In this document: positions 1 to 23,161 of the stretch, in pieces | How positions within the stretch are numbered: position 1 is the first letter of the stretch | Layout of the letters: each line of letters opens with the position of its first letter | From: Escherichia coli | Lineage (GTDB): Bacteria > Pseudomonadota > Gammaproteobacteria > Enterobacterales > Enterobacteriaceae | Reading direction: 5' to 3' (one strand) | DNA: 64,000 nucleotides | Assembly (NCBI RefSeq): GCF_029227855.1 | Contig: NZ_CP074356.1 | The notes under the pieces: model-generated | What the model was told of the DNA's origin: nothing | What the model saw: the letters and a program-made list of their open reading frames with translations, nothing else | Database searches by the model: none | Program-made: the position numbers and the translations under genes

Positions 1-338
1 CGCTGTCGAAAGAGACGCTCGCCACCATTATCGCCGGAAAACTGGCCCGTCTGGATAACGTGCTGCGCAGTCGCTTTGGTGCAGAAGTGGTCATTGAACC
101 GGAAGTGACGGACGAAATCATGAGCCGCGTCACCCGCGCGGAAAACGGCGCGAGGATGCTGGAATCGGTCATCGATGGCGACATGCTACCGCCGCTCTCG
201 CTGCTGCTGTTGCAGAAAATGGCGGCTAACACGGCGATTGCCCGGATTCGGTTGTCGGCGGTGGACGACGCATTTACGGCAGACGTGGAAGATGCTCAGA
301 ACGACGAGTCCGTCACAAAGGATGAAACGGTTTTATGA
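1..338 (+). CDS. tssH: ClpV/TssH AAA+ ATPase of T6SS, C-terminal fragment (5' end lies outside window)
   Basis: Frame open from window edge to TGA at 336-338; tail ...RFGAEVVIEPEVTDEIMSRVTRAENGARMLESVIDG... resembles Clp/Hsp100 C-terminal small domain; stop overlaps next start (ATGA); followed by tssA/tssM/hcp. Confidence 0.6.
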   Translation, partial: LSKETLATIIAGKLARLDNVLRSRFGAEVVIEPEVTDEIMSRVTRAENGARMLESVIDGDMLPPLSLLLLQKMAANTAIARIRLSAVDDAFTADVEDAQNDESVTKDETVL

Positions 339-1078
339 GCAGGTTGCGCGTTTTCCGGCAGACAGGATGGTTTATCGCGGGCCTGATGACGGGCTTACCC
401 GCCACTGCCGCGCCCGCAGAAACATCGTCAATGGCCGGTGTGGCGGTCGCCGTCGCCACCACGACCCCGCCGGATGCGACAGCCACGTCACAGGCCATGC
501 AGTCCTGTCGGCGGGAGTCCGCGGCGCTGGAGCGGCTTGACTGCTATGACCGCCTGCTGGCACCGCTGTCCCCGTCAGGGTTTGACGGGGCGCTGGTCAA
601 AGCCGGTTTTGTGGGCGAGGCCTGGACCCGCGCCACAGAGCAGGAAAAACGCCGCGAGGGCAACACCACAGAACTGCTGGTGACGCAGGTGCCGGGGGAG
701 CGCCCGACGGTGGTGATAACCACCCCGGCTATCGGCCATGTTCCGCCGCGCCCGGTGCTGATGTTCAGTTGCGTGGACAATATCACCCGGATGCAGGTGG
801 CGCTGATGCACCCTCTGGATGTCCATGATATCGCCGTCACTCTGAATGCCGACAGCCGGGCATTGCGTAGCCACTGGTTTGTGCGCGAGAACGGCACCCT
901 GCTGGAGTCCAGCCGGGGGCTGTCCGGGATTGATGAAATTAAGCAACTGTTCGGCGCAAAAACGCTGACAGTGGATACCGGCGCAGATAACGCCGCAGGA
1001 AAGCTGACCTTTAACATTGACGGGCTGGCAAGGGCGATTGCCCCCCTGCGCGTTGCCTGCCACTGGGCGGGAGAATAA
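335..1078 (+). CDS. T6SS-associated exported protein (VasI-like by position), 247 aa
   Basis: ORF with N-terminal hydrophobic signal-like segment (GWFIAGLMTGLPATAAPA) and Ala/Thr/Pro-rich linker; translationally coupled to clpV and tssA; assignment by synteny only. Confidence 0.5.
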   Translation: MSRLRVFRQTGWFIAGLMTGLPATAAPAETSSMAGVAVAVATTTPPDATATSQAMQSCRRESAALERLDCYDRLLAPLSPSGFDGALVKAGFVGEAWTRATEQEKRREGNTTELLVTQVPGERPTVVITTPAIGHVPPRPVLMFSCVDNITRMQVALMHPLDVHDIAVTLNADSRALRSHWFVRENGTLLESSRGLSGIDEIKQLFGAKTLTVDTGADNAAGKLTFNIDGLARAIAPLRVACHWAGE

Positions 1079-1082
1079 AAAT

Positions 1083-2495
1083 ATGGCAATGGACTTACGC
1101 GATCCGAATGTCTGGATAACGCACCTGCTGGAAAACCTGCCGGAAGAAAAACTGGCATCGGCGCTGAAAGATGACAACCCGGACTGGGAGTATATCGACG
1201 GCGAAATCGTCAAACTGGGATCTCTGGCCCACAGTCAACTGGATATCCCGGAACTCCAGCGCCGGGGGCTGGTCATTCTGGCTTCGGAGAGTAAGGACTT
1301 TCGTCTGCTGGCGCATCTGCTGAGAACCCTGCAACACGCCGGTGATCCTCATCTCGCATTGCGCCTGCTGGCGCTGTATGTGGAGCATTACTGGTCGGTG
1401 GCTGCGCCGCAGAATATGGCACATAAAAAACGCTTTGCCAGCCAGGTCATTAAACGCTTCGAAACAGGTATTGAAGGCTTTTCACAGAACGCCGCCACAG
1501 CGCAGCGCGACGCGCTGTCAGGGGAACTGGCGAAACTGGCGCAGTGCTGGCAGTCACATAACGCCCCGGAACTGGCACTGGCTACCGATGATCTTTTTGC
1601 CCTGTACCAGCGTGCGTTTAATCGTGCGGCACCGGCTCCTGCCCCCACTCCAGCGGCCTCCGATAGTTCACGACAGACCACCGCCACGTCTGAAAGCGGC
1701 GTGACGCAACCCAGTGCTCCGGCTCCCCAAATCGCCATCGACAGTCACGACGACAAAGCCTGGCGCGACACGCTGTTAAAAGTGGCGGCTATTTTATGTG
1801 AACGCCAGCCGGACTCGCCGCAGGGCTATCGCCTGCGCCGCCATGCCCTGTGGCAATCCATCACCAGTACACCCCAGGCGGAAAGCGATGGACGTACCCC
1901 ATTGGCTGCGGTCTCTGCCGATATGGTGGCGGATTACCAGTCCCGGCTTGCCAGCGCGGATATGGCGCTGTGGCAGCAGGTTGAGAAAAGCGTATTGCTG
2001 GCTCCTTACTGGCTGGACGGTCACTGTCTTTCTGCACAGACGGCACTGCGTCTGGGTTACAAACAGGTGGCAGACACCATCCGCGATGAGGTCATCCGCT
2101 TCCTTGAGCGTCTGCCCCAGCTTACCGGGCTGCTGTTTAATGACCGCACACCGTTTCTTAGTGAGCAGACGAAACAATGGCTGGCAGCTTCGCCCGACGG
2201 CAAAGTTGCACCGGTTGCGCAAATCGGTGAGGAATCGCAGGCAGCCAGAGCCTGTTTTGCTGGGCAGGGTCTGGAGGCGGCGCTGCGATATCTGGACATG
2301 CTACCCGAAGGCGATCCCCGCGATCAGTTTCACCGCCAGTACCTTGCCGCACAGTTGACGGAGGAGGCGGGGCTGATACAGCTTGCGCAGCAACAGTACC
2401 GGATGTTGTTGATGATAGGGAGTCAGATGATGGTGTCTGACTGGGAGCCATCATTACTTACGCAGCTTGAACAAAAATTCACGGCAGAACAATAA
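1083..2495 (+). CDS. tssA: TssA (ImpA-family) T6SS protein, 470 aa
   Basis: ATG at 1083 preceded by GGGAGA 7 nt upstream; ~470 aa with internal Pro/Ala-rich linker; immediately upstream of tssM as in VasJ-VasK arrangement. Confidence 0.6.
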   Translation: MAMDLRDPNVWITHLLENLPEEKLASALKDDNPDWEYIDGEIVKLGSLAHSQLDIPELQRRGLVILASESKDFRLLAHLLRTLQHAGDPHLALRLLALYVEHYWSVAAPQNMAHKKRFASQVIKRFETGIEGFSQNAATAQRDALSGELAKLAQCWQSHNAPELALATDDLFALYQRAFNRAAPAPAPTPAASDSSRQTTATSESGVTQPSAPAPQIAIDSHDDKAWRDTLLKVAAILCERQPDSPQGYRLRRHALWQSITSTPQAESDGRTPLAAVSADMVADYQSRLASADMALWQQVEKSVLLAPYWLDGHCLSAQTALRLGYKQVADTIRDEVIRFLERLPQLTGLLFNDRTPFLSEQTKQWLAASPDGKVAPVAQIGEESQAARACFAGQGLEAALRYLDMLPEGDPRDQFHRQYLAAQLTEEAGLIQLAQQQYRMLLMIGSQMMVSDWEPSLLTQLEQKFTAEQ

Positions 2496-2513: not shown

Positions 2514-5500
2514 GTGTTCAGATTACCAACACCCCGACTACTCAGCGGACTCAAATCAGCCCTACGCCCGGCGATGCCCCGGTTTAAAGTCTCCGCTTTC
2601 TGGCTGCTGATACTGGCGTGGATTTTTCTGCTGGTATGGATCTGGTGGAAAGGCCCGACGTGGACGCTGTATGAAGAACAGTGGCTCAAACCACTGGCGA
2701 ACCGCTGGCTGGCAACGGCGGCATGGGGGATTATCGCCCTAGTGTGGCTTACCGTCCGGGTGATGAAGCGCCTGCAACAGCTTGAAAAAATGCAAAAGCA
2801 GCAGCGCGAGGAGGCCATTGATCCGCTCAGTGTGGAGCTGAACGCCCAGCAGCGTTACCTTGACCGCTGGCTGCTGCGCCTGCAACGCCATCTCGACAAC
2901 CGCCGTTTCCTGTGGCAGTTGCCGTGGTATATGGTCATCGGCCCGGCGGGCAGTGGCAAAACGACACTGCTGCGCGAGGGTTTTCCGTCCGACATTATTT
3001 ATGCCCCGGAGGGCGCACGCGGCGCAGAACAACGCCTGTACCTCACGCCCCATGTCGGTAAACAGGCGGTGATCTTTGATATCGACGGCACACTCTGCGC
3101 TCCCGCTGATGCGGATATCCTGCATCGCCGTCTGTGGGAACATGCCCTCGGCTGGCTGAAAGAAAAGCGCGCGCGCCAGTCGCTGAACGGGATTATTCTG
3201 ACACTCGATTTACCCGATCTGCTTACCGCAGACAAACGCCGCCGCGAACATCTGTTACAGACGCTGCGCAGCCGCTTGCAGGATATACGCCAGCATCTTC
3301 ACTGCCAGTTACCGGTTTACGTGGTACTCACCCGGCTTGATTTATTGCAGGGTTTTGCCGCCCTGTTCCAGTCACTGAACAGACAGGATCGCGATGCAAT
3401 TCTAGGGGTCACGTTCACCCGCCGCGCCCATGAAAATGATGACTGGCGAACAGAGTTGAATGCTTTCTGGCAGACATGGGTGGATCGAATGAACCTAGCG
3501 TTGCCGGATCTGATGGTCGCTCAGACTCACACCCGCGCGTCTTTATTTAGTTTTTCCCGCCAGATGCAGGGAAGCCGTGAACCACTGGTGTCACTGCTTG
3601 AGGGTCTGCTTGACGGCGAAAATATGAACGTGATGCTGCGTGGCGTCTATCTCACCTCTTCGCTTCAGCGCGGACAGATGGATGATATTTTCACCCAGTC
3701 TGCCGCCCGCCAATACCGGCTGGGCAATAACCCACTGGCGTCCTGGCCTCTGGTGGACACCGCACCCTATTTCACCCGTAGCATGTTCCCGCAGGCGTTA
3801 CTCGCAGAGCCTAATCTGGCAACGGAGAGCCGCGCCTGGCTGATGCGTTCCCGTCGCCGCCTGACGGTTTTCTCTGCCACTGGCGGCGTGGCGGCACTGC
3901 TGCTCATCACCGGCTGGCATCACTATTACAATGGTAACTATCAGTCCGGCATCACCGTGCTTAAGCAGGCCAAAGCCTTTATGGATGTGCCGCCTCCGCA
4001 GGGGGAAGATGACTATGGCAACCTGCAACTGCCGCTGCTGAACCCGGTACGCGATGCCACTCTGGCCTACGGTGACTGGGGCGACCGCAGCCGCCTTGCG
4101 GAGATGGGATTATATCAGGGGCGACGCATCGGGCCTTATGTGGAACGGACCTACCTGCAACTGCTGGAGCAACGCTATCTTCCGTCGCTGTTTAACGGGC
4201 TGGTCAAAGAGATGAACGCCGCGCCACCGGAGAGTGAGGAAAAACTCGCCGTGCTGCGCGTGATGCGAATGCTGGAGGATAAGAGCGGACGTAACAATGA
4301 GGTGGTGAAGCAGTATATGGCAAAACGCTGGAGCGAAAAGTTCCACGGCCAGCGCGATATCCAGGCGCAACAGATGTCCCATCTTGACTACGCGCTGGCT
4401 CACACAGACTGGCATGCAGAGCGTCAGGCGGGCGACGGTGACGCTATCAGCCGCTGGACGCCGTATGACAAGCCCGTTGTGTCAGCACAGAAAGAACTAA
4501 GCAAACTACCTGTCTACCAGCGAGTTTACCAGAGCCTGAAAACGCGGGCGCTGGGCGTTCTTCCTGCCGACCTCAATCTGCGTGACCAGGTAGGGCCAAC
4601 CTTTGACCAGGTGTTTACATCTGCCGATGACAATAAACTGGTTGTTCCACAGTTTCTTACCCGTTACGGCCTGCAAAGCTATTTTGTAAAACAGCGCGAT
4701 GAACTGGTTGAACTGACGGCGATGGATTCCTGGGTACTCAACCTCACCCGCAGCGTGAAATACAGTGACGCCGACCGGGCGGAAATCCAGCGCCAGTTGA
4801 CCGAGCAGTATATCAGCGACTACACCGCCACCTGGCGGGCCGGGATGGACAATCTGAATATCCGCAATTTTGAGTCCATCGGACAACTGACCGGGGCGCT
4901 GGAGCAGGTTATCAGCGGTGACCAGCCTTTGCAGCGGGCGCTGACCGTGCTGCGTGACAACACACAACCAGGCGCCTTTTCTGAAAAGCTATCTGCTAAA
5001 GAACGGGATGAGGCCCTGGCTGAACCAGACTACCAGTTACTCACCCGCCTTGGGCATGAGTTCGCCCCGGAAAACAGTACCCTGACAGTCCAGAAAGATA
5101 AAGAAAGCACGATGCAGGCCGTGTACCTGCAGCTCACCGAGTTACACCGCTACCTGCTGGCGATCCAGAACGCGCCTGTACCTGGGAAATCGGCACTGAA
5201 AGCCGTGCAGTTACGGCTTGATCAGAACAGCAGCGATCCCATATTCGCCACCCGCCAGATGGCAAAAACACTGCCTGCTCCGCTCAACCGCTGGGCAGGC
5301 AGGCTGGCTGACCAGGCCTGGCATGTGGTGATGGTGGAAGCCGTTCACTATATGGAAGTGGACTGGCGCGACAGCGTGGTGAAACCGTTTAACGAGCAAC
5401 TGGCAAATAACTATCCGTTTAATCCACATTCTGCACAGGATGCCTCACTGGATGCCTTCGAACGATTCTTTAAACCAGATGGCATACTGGATACCTTCTA

Positions 5501-6038
5501 CCAGCAGAACCTAAAGCTGTTTATCGACAATGACCTGAGTCTGGAGGATGGCGATAACAACGTCATTATTCGCGAAGATATTATTGCGCAACTGGAAACC
5601 GCGCAGAAAATCCGTGACATATTCTTCAGCAAACAGAACGGTCTGGGAACATCCTTTGCCGTGGAAACGGTATCGCTTTCCGGCAACAAACGCCGCAGCG
5701 TACTGAACCTTGACGGTCAGTTAGTCGATTACAGCCAGGGCCGTAACTATACCGCCCATCTGGTCTGGCCTAACAATATGCGCGAAGGCAACGAAAGCAA
5801 ACTGACGCTGGTTGGTGCCCGCGGCGGCGCACCGCGCAGTATCAGCTTCAGCGGGCCGTGGGCTCCGTTCCGCCTGTTCGGGGCCGGACAGCTGACCGGA
5901 GTACAGGATGGCAACTTTACCGTGCGCTTTAGTGTGGACGGTGGCGCAATGACCTACCGCGTGCATACCGACACGGAAGATAACCCGTTCAGCGGTGGGT
6001 TATTCAGCCAGTTTGGCCTGTCAGACACACTGTACTGA
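2514..6038 (+). CDS. tssM: TssM (IcmF/VasK) T6SS membrane complex protein, 1174 aa
   Basis: GTG start at 2514 with AGGAG 6 nt upstream; N-terminal hydrophobic helices; Walker A GPAGSGKTT encoded at 2940-2966; size typical of IcmF family. Confidence 0.85.
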   Translation: MFRLPTPRLLSGLKSALRPAMPRFKVSAFWLLILAWIFLLVWIWWKGPTWTLYEEQWLKPLANRWLATAAWGIIALVWLTVRVMKRLQQLEKMQKQQREEAIDPLSVELNAQQRYLDRWLLRLQRHLDNRRFLWQLPWYMVIGPAGSGKTTLLREGFPSDIIYAPEGARGAEQRLYLTPHVGKQAVIFDIDGTLCAPADADILHRRLWEHALGWLKEKRARQSLNGIILTLDLPDLLTADKRRREHLLQTLRSRLQDIRQHLHCQLPVYVVLTRLDLLQGFAALFQSLNRQDRDAILGVTFTRRAHENDDWRTELNAFWQTWVDRMNLALPDLMVAQTHTRASLFSFSRQMQGSREPLVSLLEGLLDGENMNVMLRGVYLTSSLQRGQMDDIFTQSAARQYRLGNNPLASWPLVDTAPYFTRSMFPQALLAEPNLATESRAWLMRSRRRLTVFSATGGVAALLLITGWHHYYNGNYQSGITVLKQAKAFMDVPPPQGEDDYGNLQLPLLNPVRDATLAYGDWGDRSRLAEMGLYQGRRIGPYVERTYLQLLEQRYLPSLFNGLVKEMNAAPPESEEKLAVLRVMRMLEDKSGRNNEVVKQYMAKRWSEKFHGQRDIQAQQMSHLDYALAHTDWHAERQAGDGDAISRWTPYDKPVVSAQKELSKLPVYQRVYQSLKTRALGVLPADLNLRDQVGPTFDQVFTSADDNKLVVPQFLTRYGLQSYFVKQRDELVELTAMDSWVLNLTRSVKYSDADRAEIQRQLTEQYISDYTATWRAGMDNLNIRNFESIGQLTGALEQVISGDQPLQRALTVLRDNTQPGAFSEKLSAKERDEALAEPDYQLLTRLGHEFAPENSTLTVQKDKESTMQAVYLQLTELHRYLLAIQNAPVPGKSALKAVQLRLDQNSSDPIFATRQMAKTLPAPLNRWAGRLADQAWHVVMVEAVHYMEVDWRDSVVKPFNEQLANNYPFNPHSAQDASLDAFERFFKPDGILDTFYQQNLKLFIDNDLSLEDGDNNVIIREDIIAQLETAQKIRDIFFSKQNGLGTSFAVETVSLSGNKRRSVLNLDGQLVDYSQGRNYTAHLVWPNNMREGNESKLTLVGARGGAPRSISFSGPWAPFRLFGAGQLTGVQDGNFTVRFSVDGGAMTYRVHTDTEDNPFSGGLFSQFGLSDTLY

Positions 6039-6048
6039 GGAGGCAGGG

Positions 6049-7401
6049 ATGAATAGTAACGGACTGACACAAACTATCGTTACCGGCAGTGACCCGCGCG
6101 GGCTGCCGGAATTCAGCGCCATCCGCGAGGAAATAAACAAAGCCAGCCATCCGTCACAGCCTGAGCTGAACTGGAAACTGGTGGAGTCGCTGGCGCTGGC
6201 GATTTTTAAAGCCAACGGTGTGGATTTACACACCGCCACCTACTATACGCTTGCCCGGACACGGACACAGGGACTGGCGGGATTCTGCGAAGGTGCGGAA
6301 CTGCTGGCGGCAATGGTAAGCCACGACTGGGATAAATTCTGGCCGCAGGGCGGTCCGGCGCGTACTGAAATGCTGGACTGGTTTAACTCCCGAACCGGCA
6401 ATATTCTGCGTCAGCAAATCCCCTTTGCGGAACCCGATCTGCCACTGATCTACCGCACAGAGCGGGCATTGCAGCTTATCTGCGACAAGCTTCAGCAGGT
6501 GGAGCTGAAGCGCGTTCCGCGCGTGGAGAATCTGCTCTATTTTATGCAGAACACGCGTAAGCGGCTTGAACCCCAGCCGAAGAGTAACGTTGAAAACGCC
6601 GTACAGACCACGGTTAGAACACTGATTTATGCCCCGGAAACAACGGCTTCCTCCACGCCAGAAGCGGTAGTGCCTCCCCTGCCCGACCTGCCTGAGATGA
6701 AAGTAGAAGTGCGCAGTCTGTCAGAGAATCCCCCACAGGCCAGTGTGATGAAGCAAGGCAGTACGGTAAGAGGGTTTATCACGGGGATCGCCTGTTCAGT
6801 GGCTGTCGCCTCAGCATTGTGGTGGTGGCAGGTCTATCCGGTGCAACAGCAACTGTTACAGGTTAACGACACCGCGCAGGGCGCAGCAACGGTGTGGATG
6901 GCCTCACCTGAACTAGAAAACTATGAGCGCAGGCTGCAACAGCTTCTTGGCGTCTCCCCGGTACAACCGCTGGAAACCGGGATGCAGATGATGCGTGTTG
7001 CCGACAGTCGCTGGCCGGAAAGCCTGCAGCAGCAGCAGGCCTCGACACATTGGAATGAAGCACTCAAAACCCGCGCACAGAGTAGCCCGCAGTTGCGTGG
7101 CTGGTTGCAGACCCGTCAGGACTTACATGCTTTTGCAGATCTCGTGATGCGGCGCGAGAAAGAGGGACTAACCCTTTCCTATATCAAAAATGTCATCTGG
7201 CAGGCGGAGCGGGGACTGGGGCAGGAAACACCCGTTGAGTCTCTGTTGACGCAGTACCAGGATACCCGTGCGCAGAAGCAGAATATAGATGCGCTGGAAA
7301 AACAAATTAATGAGCGACTCGAAGGCGTGTTAATCCGCTGGCTGCTGCTGAAGAATAACGTCATGCCAGAGGCGGCAACCGGGACCACGGCCGAAAAATA
7401 A
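6049..7401 (+). CDS. TssA-like / VasL-like membrane-anchored T6SS accessory protein, 450 aa
   Basis: ATG at 6049 after GAGGAGG (6038-6044); central hydrophobic segment ITGIACSVAVASALWWW; position after tssM matches VasL; family call by synteny, not verified. Confidence 0.5.
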   Translation: MNSNGLTQTIVTGSDPRGLPEFSAIREEINKASHPSQPELNWKLVESLALAIFKANGVDLHTATYYTLARTRTQGLAGFCEGAELLAAMVSHDWDKFWPQGGPARTEMLDWFNSRTGNILRQQIPFAEPDLPLIYRTERALQLICDKLQQVELKRVPRVENLLYFMQNTRKRLEPQPKSNVENAVQTTVRTLIYAPETTASSTPEAVVPPLPDLPEMKVEVRSLSENPPQASVMKQGSTVRGFITGIACSVAVASALWWWQVYPVQQQLLQVNDTAQGAATVWMASPELENYERRLQQLLGVSPVQPLETGMQMMRVADSRWPESLQQQQASTHWNEALKTRAQSSPQLRGWLQTRQDLHAFADLVMRREKEGLTLSYIKNVIWQAERGLGQETPVESLLTQYQDTRAQKQNIDALEKQINERLEGVLIRWLLLKNNVMPEAATGTTAEK

Positions 7402-7424
7402 TTATTTAATTAAAGGAGATTATC

Positions 7425-7907
7425 ATGGCAAATATGAGTTATTTATCTTTGAGTGGAGAGACACAAGGGCTGATTTCAGCAGGTTGCTCAACGCTTGATT
7501 CTGTCGGAAACAAAGCACAGCCAGAACATAAAGATCAGATCATGGTTTATGCGTTAATGCATTCCATCTCAAGAAGTCAAAATGTCAATCATCATGAATT
7601 AATTATCACCAAACCGGTTGATAAATCCTCACCATTGCTGGCAAAAGCACTTAGTGACAATGAAAAAATGGTAACATGTGAATTTATACTCTACCGAACC
7701 AGTAAAGCGGGTATTTACCAGCCTTATTATAAAATAAACCTGTCAAAAGCCCGAATATCAAGTATTGATTTTGTCACACCGCATGCTGTCCTGGAAAAAG
7801 AACTGGAGCCACAGGAGAGAATTGCCTTTATTTATGAAGATATTTCCTGGGAGCATACGTTAGCCGGTACGAATGCAATGAGTAAATGGCAGGATCGTGT
7901 ACAGTAA
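7425..7907 (+). CDS. hcp: Hcp (TssD) T6SS tube protein, 160 aa
   Basis: AGGAG RBS upstream; 160 aa; Hcp-like segments KSSPLLAKAL and ERIAFIYEDISWEH; no C-terminal extension; lower GC than upstream T6SS genes. Confidence 0.8.
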   Translation: MANMSYLSLSGETQGLISAGCSTLDSVGNKAQPEHKDQIMVYALMHSISRSQNVNHHELIITKPVDKSSPLLAKALSDNEKMVTCEFILYRTSKAGIYQPYYKINLSKARISSIDFVTPHAVLEKELEPQERIAFIYEDISWEHTLAGTNAMSKWQDRVQ

Positions 7908-7950: not shown

Positions 7951-8865
7951 ATGGCTGGTTTAAGGAATAATAACAACACACAGAATGCACAGTGGGCTGA
8001 TTATGTGGGTGACATTCTTCGGGGGGCTCAACCGATAAACCAGCTAGTACCTCAGCACCCTTATCTTAACGACGTCCCACTCATTGATGAATTAAGGCGT
8101 CAGAACACTCATCATGTTATTCTCTTGACACTTGATGTTGCAAAAAAAATACTCAACTCAATAACATCATTTGATTACATTCATTTTATCACTACACATC
8201 CTTCAGGTATAAAAGATACACTCGCTTGGTTAGTTAACGCGGGTAAATTAATGACTGAGTTTGATGGAAATGGGAAAATTATATTTAACTTTAATACCTT
8301 AAAGTATACAAAAGCAAGTTACTTTGAAATACTTGGAGAGAAATATATAAAAATTACAACATCCAGCCCCTGGCTTTTAGAAAAGCTCGGTAAATATATT
8401 TTCTCTTCACGAGCGCCTCAAGTTCTGGAACTCGCTATTGGCTGGCGAGGAGCTTTATCTGAATCAATAAAAGGAGTTAAGTTCTGTATCTGGTTTTCAG
8501 TAGCCTGGAGAACCATAGAATTTATTATGAGTTCAGAGCGAGATCTGGTTAATTTTCTTGGTGATTTTTCAATGGATGTGGCCAAAGCAGTGATTGCAGG
8601 CGGTGTTGCAACTGCTATTGGAAGCCTGGCTTCTTTTGCCTGTCTTAGTTTTGGCCTTCCAGTAATTCTTGTAGGAGGAGCAATTTTACTTACAGGGATA
8701 GTGTGTACAGTTGTTTTAAATGAAATCGATGCTCAATACCATTTATCAGAAAAATTAAAAGATGCAATTAGAGATGGACTAAAACGGCAACAGGAACTTG
8801 ATAAATGGAAAAGGGAAAACATGACTCCATTTATGTATGTTCTTAACACTCCTCCCGTGATATGA
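7951..8865 (+). CDS. hypothetical protein, 304 aa, C-terminal Gly/Ala-rich hydrophobic helical hairpin; candidate T6SS cargo effector
   Basis: ATG 7951 with GGAGAG 5 nt upstream; ~220-aa polar N-terminal region, then two hydrophobic helices (AVIAGGVATAIGSLASFA and GLPVILVGGAILLTGIVCTVVL) and a charged tail; AT-rich; 43 nt downstream of hcp. Confidence 0.55.
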   Translation: MAGLRNNNNTQNAQWADYVGDILRGAQPINQLVPQHPYLNDVPLIDELRRQNTHHVILLTLDVAKKILNSITSFDYIHFITTHPSGIKDTLAWLVNAGKLMTEFDGNGKIIFNFNTLKYTKASYFEILGEKYIKITTSSPWLLEKLGKYIFSSRAPQVLELAIGWRGALSESIKGVKFCIWFSVAWRTIEFIMSSERDLVNFLGDFSMDVAKAVIAGGVATAIGSLASFACLSFGLPVILVGGAILLTGIVCTVVLNEIDAQYHLSEKLKDAIRDGLKRQQELDKWKRENMTPFMYVLNTPPVI

Positions 8866-10604: not shown

Positions 10605-10681
10605 TGGCGGAACGGACGGGACTCGAACCCGCGACCCCCTGCGTGACAGGCAGGTATTCTAACCGACTGAACTACCGCTCC
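10605..10681 (-). tRNA. aspV: tRNA-Asp(GUC)
   Basis: 77-nt reverse complement of canonical E. coli tRNA-Asp including CCA; identical to the copy at 19539-19615. Confidence 0.95.
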
Positions 10682-19538: not shown

Positions 19539-19615
19539 TGGCGGAACGGACGGGACTCGAACCCGCGACCCCCTGCGTGACAGGCAGGTATTCTAACCGA
19601 CTGAACTACCGCTCC
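19539..19615 (-). tRNA. aspU: tRNA-Asp(GUC), distal tRNA of rrnH
   Basis: 77-nt reverse complement of canonical tRNA-Asp including CCA. Confidence 0.95.
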
Positions 19616-19667
19616 ACCGAATTCTTTTACAACCACCGGTTTTATGACCGGCTTACTGCTAAATTTG

Positions 19668-19787
19668 ATGCCTGGCAGTTCCCTACTCTCGCATGGGGAG
19701 ACCCCACACTACCATCGGCGCTACGGCGTTTCACTTCTGAGTTCGGCATGGGGTCAGGTGGGACCACCGCGCTAAGGCCGCCAGGCA
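19668..19787 (-). rRNA. rrfH: 5S ribosomal RNA
   Basis: 120-nt reverse complement of E. coli 5S rRNA; one difference from the copy I recall. Confidence 0.95.
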
Positions 19788-19878
19788 AATTCTGTTTATC
19801 AGACCGCTTCTGCGTTCTGATTTAATCTGTATCAGGCTGAAAATCTTCTCTCATCCGCCAAAACATCTTCGGCGTTGT

Positions 19879-22783
<2,905 letters not shown>

Positions 22784-22966
22784 TCACAACCCGAAGATGT
22801 TTCTTTCGATTCATCATCGTGTTGCGAAAATTTGAGAGACTCACGAACAACTTTCGTTGTTCAGTGTTTCAATTTTCAGCTTGATCCAGATTTTTAAAGA
22901 GCAAAACTTCGCAGTGAACCTTTGCAGGTACACTCTGAAGTATTTTTTATTTAATCACTACAGAGA

Positions 22967-23042
22967 TGGTGGAGCTATGCGGGATCGAACCGCAGACCTC
23001 CTGCGTGCAAAGCAGGCGCTCTCCCAGCTGAGCTATAGCCCC
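22967..23042 (-). tRNA. alaV: tRNA-Ala(UGC), spacer tRNA
   Basis: Reverse complement of GGGGCTATAGCTCAGCTGGGAGAGCGCCTGCTTTGCACGCAGGAGGTCTGCGGTTCGATCCCGCATAGCTCCACCA. Confidence 0.95.
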
Positions 23043-23084
23043 ATAACATGTAGTTAAAACCTCTTCAAATTTGCGGTGCAAATT

Positions 23085-23161
<77 letters not shown>

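What the first reader, a model, noticed from the sequence alone, without database searches (positions are those of the whole stretch)
6049..7401. A second, membrane-anchored TssA-like protein flanking tssM
Both the ORF before tssM (1083-2495) and the one after it (6049-7401) fit the size and position of ImpA-family (TssA-like) proteins, but only the latter carries a central hydrophobic segment (ITGIACSVAVASALWWW) that would anchor it in the membrane. The role of such VasL-type paralogs is poorly defined, so this is a functional lead rather than a settled annotation.
Basis: inference. Interest (0 to 1): 0.35.

Follow-up and report, generated by a model that had tools for sequence, protein, structure and literature searches.

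The report
TagA sheath anchor of E. coli T6SS
The gene after tssM encodes TagA (also called VasL or TsmA), a known membrane-bound accessory protein that stops the growing type VI secretion sheath at the far side of the cell and holds it there, so the finding is correct but ordinary.

Summary
[quoted passage not shown] The ORF before tssM (1083-2495) is the true core TssA (ImpA_N + VasJ) and has no hydrophobic segment.

The protein is not an undefined paralog. It aligns over its full length with the experimentally studied EAEC TagA (28% identity over 449 aa, E 7e-53), with the same two Pfam domains and a colinear hydrophobic helix. The gene order vasI-tssA-tssM-vasL matches Vibrio cholerae. TagA proteins sit in the inner membrane, bind the TssA cap, stop sheath growth at the opposite membrane and hold the sheath extended.

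The window is E. coli chromosome, in the T6SS island next to tRNA-Asp (aspV). The gene occurs in about 2,950 of 5,426 complete E. coli genomes, and the EHEC orthologue is already tabulated as TagA in a published dataset. Novelty is therefore low.

One open point is topology. In 50 homologues the helix follows the positive-inside rule (N-terminus in the cytoplasm), and the VasL part is almost free of cysteine (0.03% against 0.90%), like the periplasmic domain of TssM. This hints that VasL is periplasmic, whereas the literature calls TagA cytosolic or peripheral.

The parts
6049..7401 (+). tagA (vasL/tsmA) CDS, 450 aa: ImpA_N domain, linker, hydrophobic helix, VasL domain
   Evidence: ORF list. 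Pfam ImpA_N 71.9 bits and VasL 78.3 bits. RefSeq calls the same coordinates a 'VasL domain-containing protein'. 28% identity over 449 aa to EAEC TagA, E 7e-53.
6037..6043 (+). Shine-Dalgarno GAGGAGG, overlapping the tssM stop codon (6036-6038), 5 nt before the ATG at 6049
   Evidence: Read directly from the sequence. The 10-nt tssM-tagA gap implies co-transcription and coupled translation (inference).
6076..6573 (+). N-terminal helical TssA-like domain (residues 10-175); the Pfam ImpA_N match is residues 12-113 (6082-6387)
6580..6759 (+). Low-confidence, probably disordered Pro/Ser/Thr-rich linker (residues 178-237)
   Evidence: AlphaFold pLDDT about 45-55 with no secondary structure. Highest dN/dS of the gene, 0.41. 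Poorly aligned among homologues.
6763..6870 (+). Single long helix (residues 239-274) with hydrophobic core at residues 242-260 (6772-6828, GFITGIACSVAVASALWWW): the membrane anchor
   Evidence: KD19 1.56, comparable to TM3 of the neighbouring TssM at 1.65. Positionally conserved in 50 homologues, median KD 1.99. G246 is nearly invariant. K+R is enriched on the N-terminal flank. AlphaFold helix 239-274.
6922..7350 (+). VasL domain (PF12486, residues 292-434); the helical C-terminal domain spans residues 276-435
   Evidence: Pfam 78.3 bits. All-helical model with pLDDT 80-95. Only generic TPR-like structural neighbours. Cysteine-free in 48 of 50 homologues. dN/dS 0.21.
1083..2495 (+). tssA (vasJ-type, long TssA): the core cap protein and expected binding partner of TagA
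   Evidence: TIGR03362 499.9 bits against a cut-off of 230.1. Pfam ImpA_N plus T6SS_VasJ. No hydrophobic segment, KD maximum 0.92.
2514..6038 (+). tssM (vasK/icmF), the inner-membrane subunit of the membrane complex (RefSeq starts it at 2574)
   Evidence: TIGR03348 931.7 bits. Three hydrophobic helices at 26-44, 66-84 and 450-468. RefSeq annotation.
335..1078 (+). vasI, a T6SS-associated accessory protein
   Evidence: PF11319 178.6 bits and TIGR03360 256.3 bits.
7425..7907 (+). hcp (tssD) tube-protein gene immediately downstream of tagA
   Evidence: PF05638 and TIGR03344 204.5 bits.

Best explanation
ORF 6049-7401 encodes the TagA (VasL/TsmA, 'class B' ImpA_N) accessory protein of the E. coli T6SS island next to tRNA-Asp (aspV). 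This island is the EHEC-type, phylogenetic group 1 system, with V. cholerae-like gene order. The likely mechanism is as follows. The protein is held in the inner membrane by its single central hydrophobic helix. Its cytoplasmic N-terminal ImpA_N domain recognises the TssA cap (the product of 1083-2495), which rides on the growing distal end of the sheath. [quoted passage not shown] This prevents over-long, bent or detached sheaths. Shown here: the domain architecture, the fold of the N-domain, conservation of the hydrophobic helix, full-length homology to EAEC TagA, the genomic context and purifying selection. Inferred by homology from EAEC and V. cholerae experiments: membrane localisation, TssA binding and the stop-and-hold activity.
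Against: No experiment on this particular protein was found. Identity to the studied EAEC protein is only 28%, and Schneider et al. give 19% between the EAEC and V. cholerae TagAs, so details may differ. In V. cholerae TagA also inhibits initiation, and TssA-TagA contact is reported as not required for termination. The helix of this allele is only moderately hydrophobic (KD 1.56, just under the classical 1.6). The EHEC version of this T6SS is H-NS-silenced in vitro. Some strains carry the gene with an internal stop or a truncation, so it is dispensable in at least some lineages.
Confidence: 0.85

Rival explanations
1. It is a second, redundant core TssA (a cap or chaperone that primes and coordinates tube and sheath polymerisation).
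For: It shares ImpA_N with TssA. It gives partial hits to the TssA equivalog models TIGR03362 and TIGR03363 over the N-terminal 200 residues. Its N-domain has a TssA-like fold.
Against: Scores are far below the equivalog cut-offs (83.3 against 230.1, and 40.5 against 160.85). It has no VasJ or other ring-forming C-terminal domain. Pairwise similarity to the neighbouring TssA is not significant (E 0.27). It carries a membrane helix, which TssA lacks.
Confidence: 0.03
2. It acts mainly as a negative regulator of assembly initiation, sequestering TssA or the membrane-complex and baseplate at the membrane, rather than as a distal-end clamp.
For: In V. cholerae, TagA overexpression abolishes sheath assembly and holds TssA at initiation sites. 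TagA interacts with TssM, and deleting it in a tssA mutant increases sheath numbers. Here tagA is translationally adjacent to tssM.
Against: At native levels, deletion phenotypes in both EAEC and V. cholerae are over-long, bent and unstable sheaths, with TagA foci at distal ends. The two roles are not mutually exclusive.
Confidence: 0.1
3. It is a decaying, non-functional remnant in a silenced island.
For: The EHEC T6SS is poorly expressed in vitro. Pseudogene and truncated alleles exist. About 46% of complete E. coli genomes lack the gene.
Against: The ORF in the window is intact, full-length and has a strong ribosome-binding site. dN/dS is 0.22, and lowest in the folded domains. 2,690 genomes keep at least 80% of it at 95-100% identity. 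Orthologues of 72-84% identity are found across Salmonella, Citrobacter, Enterobacter and E. albertii.
Confidence: 0.02

Closest known systems
EAEC TagA (EC042_4550; L002:34070-35437), Santin et al. 2018 Nat Microbiol
   Same: Same length class (450 and 455 aa). Same Pfam pair, ImpA_N plus VasL. Colinear hydrophobic helix. Full-length alignment at 28% identity, E 7e-53. Both accompany a long VasJ-type TssA.
   Different: It belongs to a different T6SS: the Sci-1 (T6SS-1, group 2) cluster at pheU, against the aspV group 1 cluster here. In EAEC the gene lies several genes beyond the cluster end, whereas here it directly follows tssM. The helix of the window protein is less hydrophobic (KD 1.56 against 1.99).
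Vibrio cholerae TagA / VasL (VCA0121), Schneider et al. 2019; Stietz et al. 2020
   Same: Same position in the operon, vasI-vasJ(tssA)-vasK(tssM)-vasL. Same phylogenetic group 1. The architecture is ImpA_N followed by a hydrophobic domain. It gives its name to the VasL Pfam family that the window protein matches.
   Different: I did not hold its sequence, so I computed no direct alignment. Bernal et al. put the V. cholerae protein in a separate column ('TagAV') from EAEC-type TagA and place the EHEC orthologue under 'TagA'.
Core TssA, long form (window 1083-2495; EAEC TssA, PDB 6rju)
   Same: Both have an N-terminal ImpA_N domain with a TssA-like helical fold.
   Different: TssA has a VasJ C-terminal oligomerisation domain and no membrane helix. 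It is essential or near-essential and rides the growing sheath end. The window protein fails the TssA equivalog cut-offs.
TagB / TagJ sheath stabilisers of short-TssA systems (Bernal et al. 2021)
   Same: They are accessory proteins recruited by TssA that stabilise the extended sheath.
   Different: They are about 30 kDa, unrelated in sequence, act at the baseplate rather than the distal end, and occur in groups 3-5 with short TssA.

Membership tests
TagA / TsmA (class B ImpA_N proteins) | N-terminal ImpA_N domain (PF06812) | tested here: met
   [not shown]
TagA / TsmA (class B ImpA_N proteins) | Central hydrophobic or transmembrane region following the ImpA_N domain | tested here: met
   One hydrophobic helix at residues 242-260 (KD19 1.56), at the same alignment position as in EAEC TagA and 48 other homologues. 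AlphaFold helix 239-274. No dedicated TM predictor was available.
TagA / TsmA (class B ImpA_N proteins) | C-terminal VasL domain (PF12486) | tested here: met
   78.3 bits against a cut-off of 27.3, residues 292-434. EAEC TagA scores 129.8 bits on the same model.
TagA / TsmA (class B ImpA_N proteins) | Full-length sequence homology to an experimentally characterised TagA | tested here: met
   BLASTP against EAEC 042 TagA: 28% identity over 449 aa, E 7e-53. The EHEC orthologue is listed as TagA at 0.32 identity and 0.93 coverage in Bernal et al. Dataset S1.
TagA / TsmA (class B ImpA_N proteins) | Encoded with a T6SS that has a long (VasJ-type) TssA | tested here: met
   TssA at 1083-2495 has ImpA_N plus VasJ and scores 499.9 bits on TIGR03362. 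A complete cluster lies upstream in the identical genome.
TagA / TsmA (class B ImpA_N proteins) | Inner-membrane localisation | not testable with these tools
   Only sequence signals are available. Fractionation or microscopy is needed.
TagA / TsmA (class B ImpA_N proteins) | Binds TssA, localises to the distal sheath end, and stops and holds the sheath | not testable with these tools
   Known for the EAEC and V. cholerae proteins. No data were found for this orthologue.
Core TssA (TIGR03362 / TIGR03363) | Reaches the NCBIfam equivalog cut-off over the full model | tested here: not met
   83.3 bits against 230.1, with only model positions 14-205 of 476 matched, and 40.5 bits against 160.85.
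Core TssA (TIGR03362 / TIGR03363) | C-terminal ring-forming domain (VasJ or equivalent) | tested here: not met
   No T6SS_VasJ hit; the C-terminus is VasL instead. There is no significant similarity to the neighbouring TssA.

The most novel reading that the evidence does not exclude
TagA may be a true bitopic protein, with its N-terminus in the cytoplasm and its C-terminal VasL domain in the periplasm. The 'clamp' would then be braced across the inner membrane, for example against peptidoglycan or the periplasmic part of TssM. This differs from the literature's description of a cytosolic protein tightly or peripherally attached to the membrane. Evidence for: there is only one hydrophobic helix and no second one to return the chain to the cytoplasm. 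K+R averages 2.98 in the 15 residues before the helix and 1.28 after it, with 41 of 50 homologues showing more upstream. Cysteine is 0.90% in the N-terminal part (40 alignment columns) but 0.03% in the C-terminal part (3 columns; 48 of 50 sequences have none). The same pattern appears in the known periplasmic domain of the neighbouring TssM, with 0 Cys in 706 residues against 2 in its cytoplasmic domain. Evidence against: published descriptions call it 'peripherally associated', and I recall 'cytosolic' from the Santin 2018 abstract, a paper I could not read. A C-terminal mNeonGreen fusion of the V. cholerae protein is fluorescent and active.
Probability: 0.25. Interest if true: 0.5.

Novelty: already known. 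Interest (0 to 1): 0.12.

Why it matters
For annotation, the gene can be named tagA (vasL/tsmA) instead of 'VasL domain-containing protein' or 'hypothetical'. The two ImpA_N genes that flank tssM should not be treated as duplicates, because one is the cap (TssA) and the other is its membrane stopper. For biology, the presence of TagA predicts that this widespread E. coli T6SS is a 'slow', long-residence system whose sheaths span the cell and wait before firing, like those of EAEC Sci-1 and V. cholerae. Nothing here changes what is known about the family. The only point that could matter more broadly is the topology of the VasL domain, whose function is still unassigned in the literature.

Tried and rejected
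1. A second TssA: rejected. It falls below the equivalog cut-offs, lacks VasJ, and shows no significant pairwise similarity to the neighbouring TssA.
2. An upstream GTG start at 5995: rejected. It lies inside tssM, and the ATG at 6049 has a consensus Shine-Dalgarno sequence and is the RefSeq start.
4. Family members with a different, informative C-terminal domain: nine longer or two-stretch homologues were scanned, and all were ImpA_N plus VasL.
5. Foldseek against AFDB50: the library was unavailable.
6. Santin et al. 2018, the primary TagA paper: not held, so its topology experiments could not be checked. Secondary descriptions disagree with each other: 'transmembrane region', 'membrane-associated', 'peripherally associated'.
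7. A literature search for 'VasL' or 'TsmA' work on this orthologue found nothing specific.
That allele is annotated as a pseudogene with an internal stop.
9. No direct alignment with V. cholerae VCA0121 was made, because its sequence was not held.

Full report
**Where the window comes from.** The window is Escherichia coli chromosome. Bases 5900-7500 match strain JNEC-KY178 at 100%. The annotated region of that genome shows a complete type VI secretion cluster: tssB, tssC, tssE, tssF, tssG, tagH, tssJ, tssK, tssL/icmH, tssH, vasI, tssA, tssM, a 'VasL domain-containing protein' and hcp. This cluster ends at yafT, tRNA-Asp (aspV), dnaQ and rnhA. The window starts inside tssH/clpV and holds the 3' end of that island. 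tRNA-Asp lies at 10605-10681, and GC content falls to 36.5% at 8-10 kb. This is the aspV-linked T6SS described for EHEC EDL933. A 2023 review places the EHEC system in phylogenetic group 1.

**Check of the observation.** An ORF of 450 codons runs from the ATG at 6049 to 7401. A longer GTG-initiated version from 5995 lies inside tssM. The ATG is preceded by GAGGAGG (6037-6043), which overlaps the tssM stop codon, and RefSeq uses the same coordinates.
- Both ORFs flanking tssM contain ImpA_N (PF06812), at 71.9 bits for 6049-7401 and 31.3 bits for 1083-2495.
- Only 6049-7401 has a hydrophobic stretch. Its best 19-residue Kyte-Doolittle mean is 1.56, around GFITGIACSVAVASALWWW (residues 242-260), and everything else in the protein is 0.88 or below.
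- The maximum in TssA is 0.92.

**What the two ImpA_N proteins are.** ORF 1083-2495 is the core TssA. It scores 499.9 bits on TIGR03362 (cut-off 230.1) and has a T6SS_VasJ C-terminal domain. ORF 6049-7401 matches only the N-terminal ~200 positions of the TssA models and stays far below their cut-offs (83.3 and 40.5 bits). Its C-terminus is a VasL domain (PF12486, 78.3 bits, residues 292-434). The two neighbours are not detectably similar by BLASTP (E 0.27), so this is not a recent duplicate.

**Structure model.** I built an AlphaFold2 model from an alignment of 50 homologues (mean pLDDT 83.6). It shows four parts:
- a confident helical N-domain (residues 10-175);
- a roughly 60-residue low-confidence linker (178-237);
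- one long helix (239-274) that contains the hydrophobic stretch;
- an all-helical C-domain (276-435).

[quoted passage not shown] 2019). I recovered the experimentally studied EAEC 042 TagA as an intact 455-codon ORF downstream of the Sci-1 cluster (L002:34070-35437).
- The window protein aligns with it end to end at 28% identity over 449 residues, E 7e-53, with the hydrophobic helices in register.
- EAEC TagA has the same two Pfam domains.
- The local gene order vasI, tssA(VasJ), tssM(VasK), vasL is that of V. cholerae VCA0118-VCA0121. This follows from the Pfam family names and from TagA-VC being VCA0121.
- Bernal et al. 2021 report that long TssA proteins of groups 1 and 2 usually co-occur with a TagA.
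- Their Dataset S1 lists E. coli O157:H7 EDL933 in group 1 with a TagA entry of 0.32 identity and 0.93 coverage. That entry is the orthologue of this gene.

[quoted passage not shown] It interacts with TssA and can recruit TssA to the envelope. Its loss gives over-long, sliding, bent or detached sheaths without a static extended phase, and lowers T6SS efficiency. Overproduction blocks assembly. Stietz et al. add a TssM-TagA interaction and an inhibitory effect on initiation.

I therefore assign the same stop-and-hold (distal anchor) role to the window protein. The TssA of 1083-2495 would be its partner, and the helix at residues 242-260 its membrane anchor. None of this has been tested on this orthologue, and I found no paper that does so.

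**Is the gene functional and how widespread is it?**
- It is present in 2,948-2,950 of 5,426 complete E. coli genomes, and at least 80% complete in about 2,690.
- The window carries a minority allele. 302 genomes are at least 99% identical and about 2,611 are 95-99% identical.
- Against the common allele, dN/dS is 0.22: 0.10 in the N-domain, 0.21 in the C-domain and 0.41 in the linker. This indicates purifying selection on the folded parts.
- Orthologues at 72-84% identity occur in Salmonella, Citrobacter, Enterobacter, Pseudocitrobacter, Yokenella and E. albertii.
- An exhaustive profile-free search found 890 cluster representatives at E 0.001 or below.
- Some strains carry an internal stop or a truncation.
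- Distant homologues sit in a Sci-1-like cluster after tssE (L003), next to vgrG (L004), or alone between ccm operons (L005). Adjacency to tssM is thus a feature of this V. cholerae-like arrangement, not of the family as a whole.

**The hydrophobic helix and topology.** Across 50 homologues of 24-76% identity the segment keeps its position and its hydrophobicity (median KD 1.99; 44 of 50 at 1.6 or above) while its sequence varies. G246 is nearly invariant. The E. coli allele is at the weak end (1.56) but is comparable to TM3 of the adjacent TssM (1.65). This pattern fits a membrane helix, not a buried core element.

Two further signals bear on orientation:
- Basic residues are concentrated on the N-terminal flank: 2.98 K+R in the preceding 15 residues against 1.28 in the following 15, with 41 of 50 sequences having more upstream. 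Under the positive-inside rule this puts the ImpA_N domain in the cytoplasm.
- The part C-terminal to the helix is almost devoid of cysteine (3 in 9,986 residues, 0.03%, none in 48 of 50 sequences). The N-terminal part has 0.90%, spread over 40 alignment columns.

As a control, TssM from the same cluster has 2 cysteines in its cytoplasmic domain and none in its 706-residue C-terminal domain. That C-terminal domain is known to be periplasmic from established knowledge of TssM. No second hydrophobic helix exists to bring the chain back.

Taken alone, these signals favour a bitopic protein with the VasL domain in the periplasm. [quoted passage not shown] 2018, 'a cytosolic protein tightly associated with the membrane'. 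I could not read that paper.

There are caveats. The sequences are related, so the Fisher P value overstates significance. A functional C-terminal mNeonGreen fusion in V. cholerae argues mildly for a cytoplasmic C-terminus. I therefore keep the periplasmic reading as the most novel reading not excluded, at a probability of about 0.25, and not as a conclusion.

**Verdict.** Its suggestion that this is an unsettled functional lead is out of date. The gene is the TagA/VasL/TsmA accessory component of a well-catalogued E. coli T6SS. It is annotated as a VasL-domain protein in RefSeq, and its EHEC orthologue is already tabulated as TagA. Novelty: already known. Interest: low.

Noticed in passing
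L002:34070-35437 (E. coli 042, NC_017626.1 4884070-4885437): RefSeq/PGAP annotates the experimentally characterised EAEC TagA as three pseudogene fragments: an ImpA N-terminal fragment, a 'POTRA domain-containing protein' and a VasL fragment. The region is in fact one intact 455-codon ORF with ImpA_N and VasL domains, so this looks like an annotation artefact.
   Followed up: partly
window 7951-8865 (+): A 304-aa hypothetical protein lies directly after hcp in the low-GC (36.5%) tail of the island. It has no Pfam or NCBIfam match. It has two strongly hydrophobic helices (residues 214-232, KD 1.88; residues 238-256, KD 2.71). It belongs to a 3,465-member cluster in which all 15 listed members are named 'hypothetical'. 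It may be an Hcp-linked cargo or immunity protein.
   Followed up: partly
alignment A1 (50 TagA homologues); window 6870-7401: The region C-terminal to the membrane helix is almost cysteine-free across the family (0.03% against 0.90% in the N-terminal part). It is also Gln-rich (12.2%) and His-poor (1.6% against 3.7%). The periplasmic domain of the neighbouring TssM (residues 469-1174) is cysteine-free as well.
   Followed up: yes
[not shown]
   Followed up: partly
L005:7600-9419 (GCA_001484765.1 contig LLXO01000013.1): An orphan tagA homologue (472 aa, ImpA_N plus VasL) lies outside any T6SS cluster, between two cytochrome c maturation (ccm) operons. A 134-aa ORF without Pfam hits precedes it and overlaps it by 4 nt. 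The same pair occurs in a second sample (L006).
   Followed up: no
window 2514 vs 2574: The tssM start differs between the mechanical ORF call (GTG at 2514, 1174 aa) and RefSeq (equivalent to window 2574). The first hydrophobic helix (residues 26-44 in the long form) begins only a few codons after the RefSeq start.
   Followed up: no
window 19539-23161: A second tRNA-Asp, together with tRNA-Ala and tRNA-Ile on the minus strand, marks an rRNA operon (annotated 5S, 23S and 16S in the identical genome). It is unrelated to the finding.
   Followed up: no
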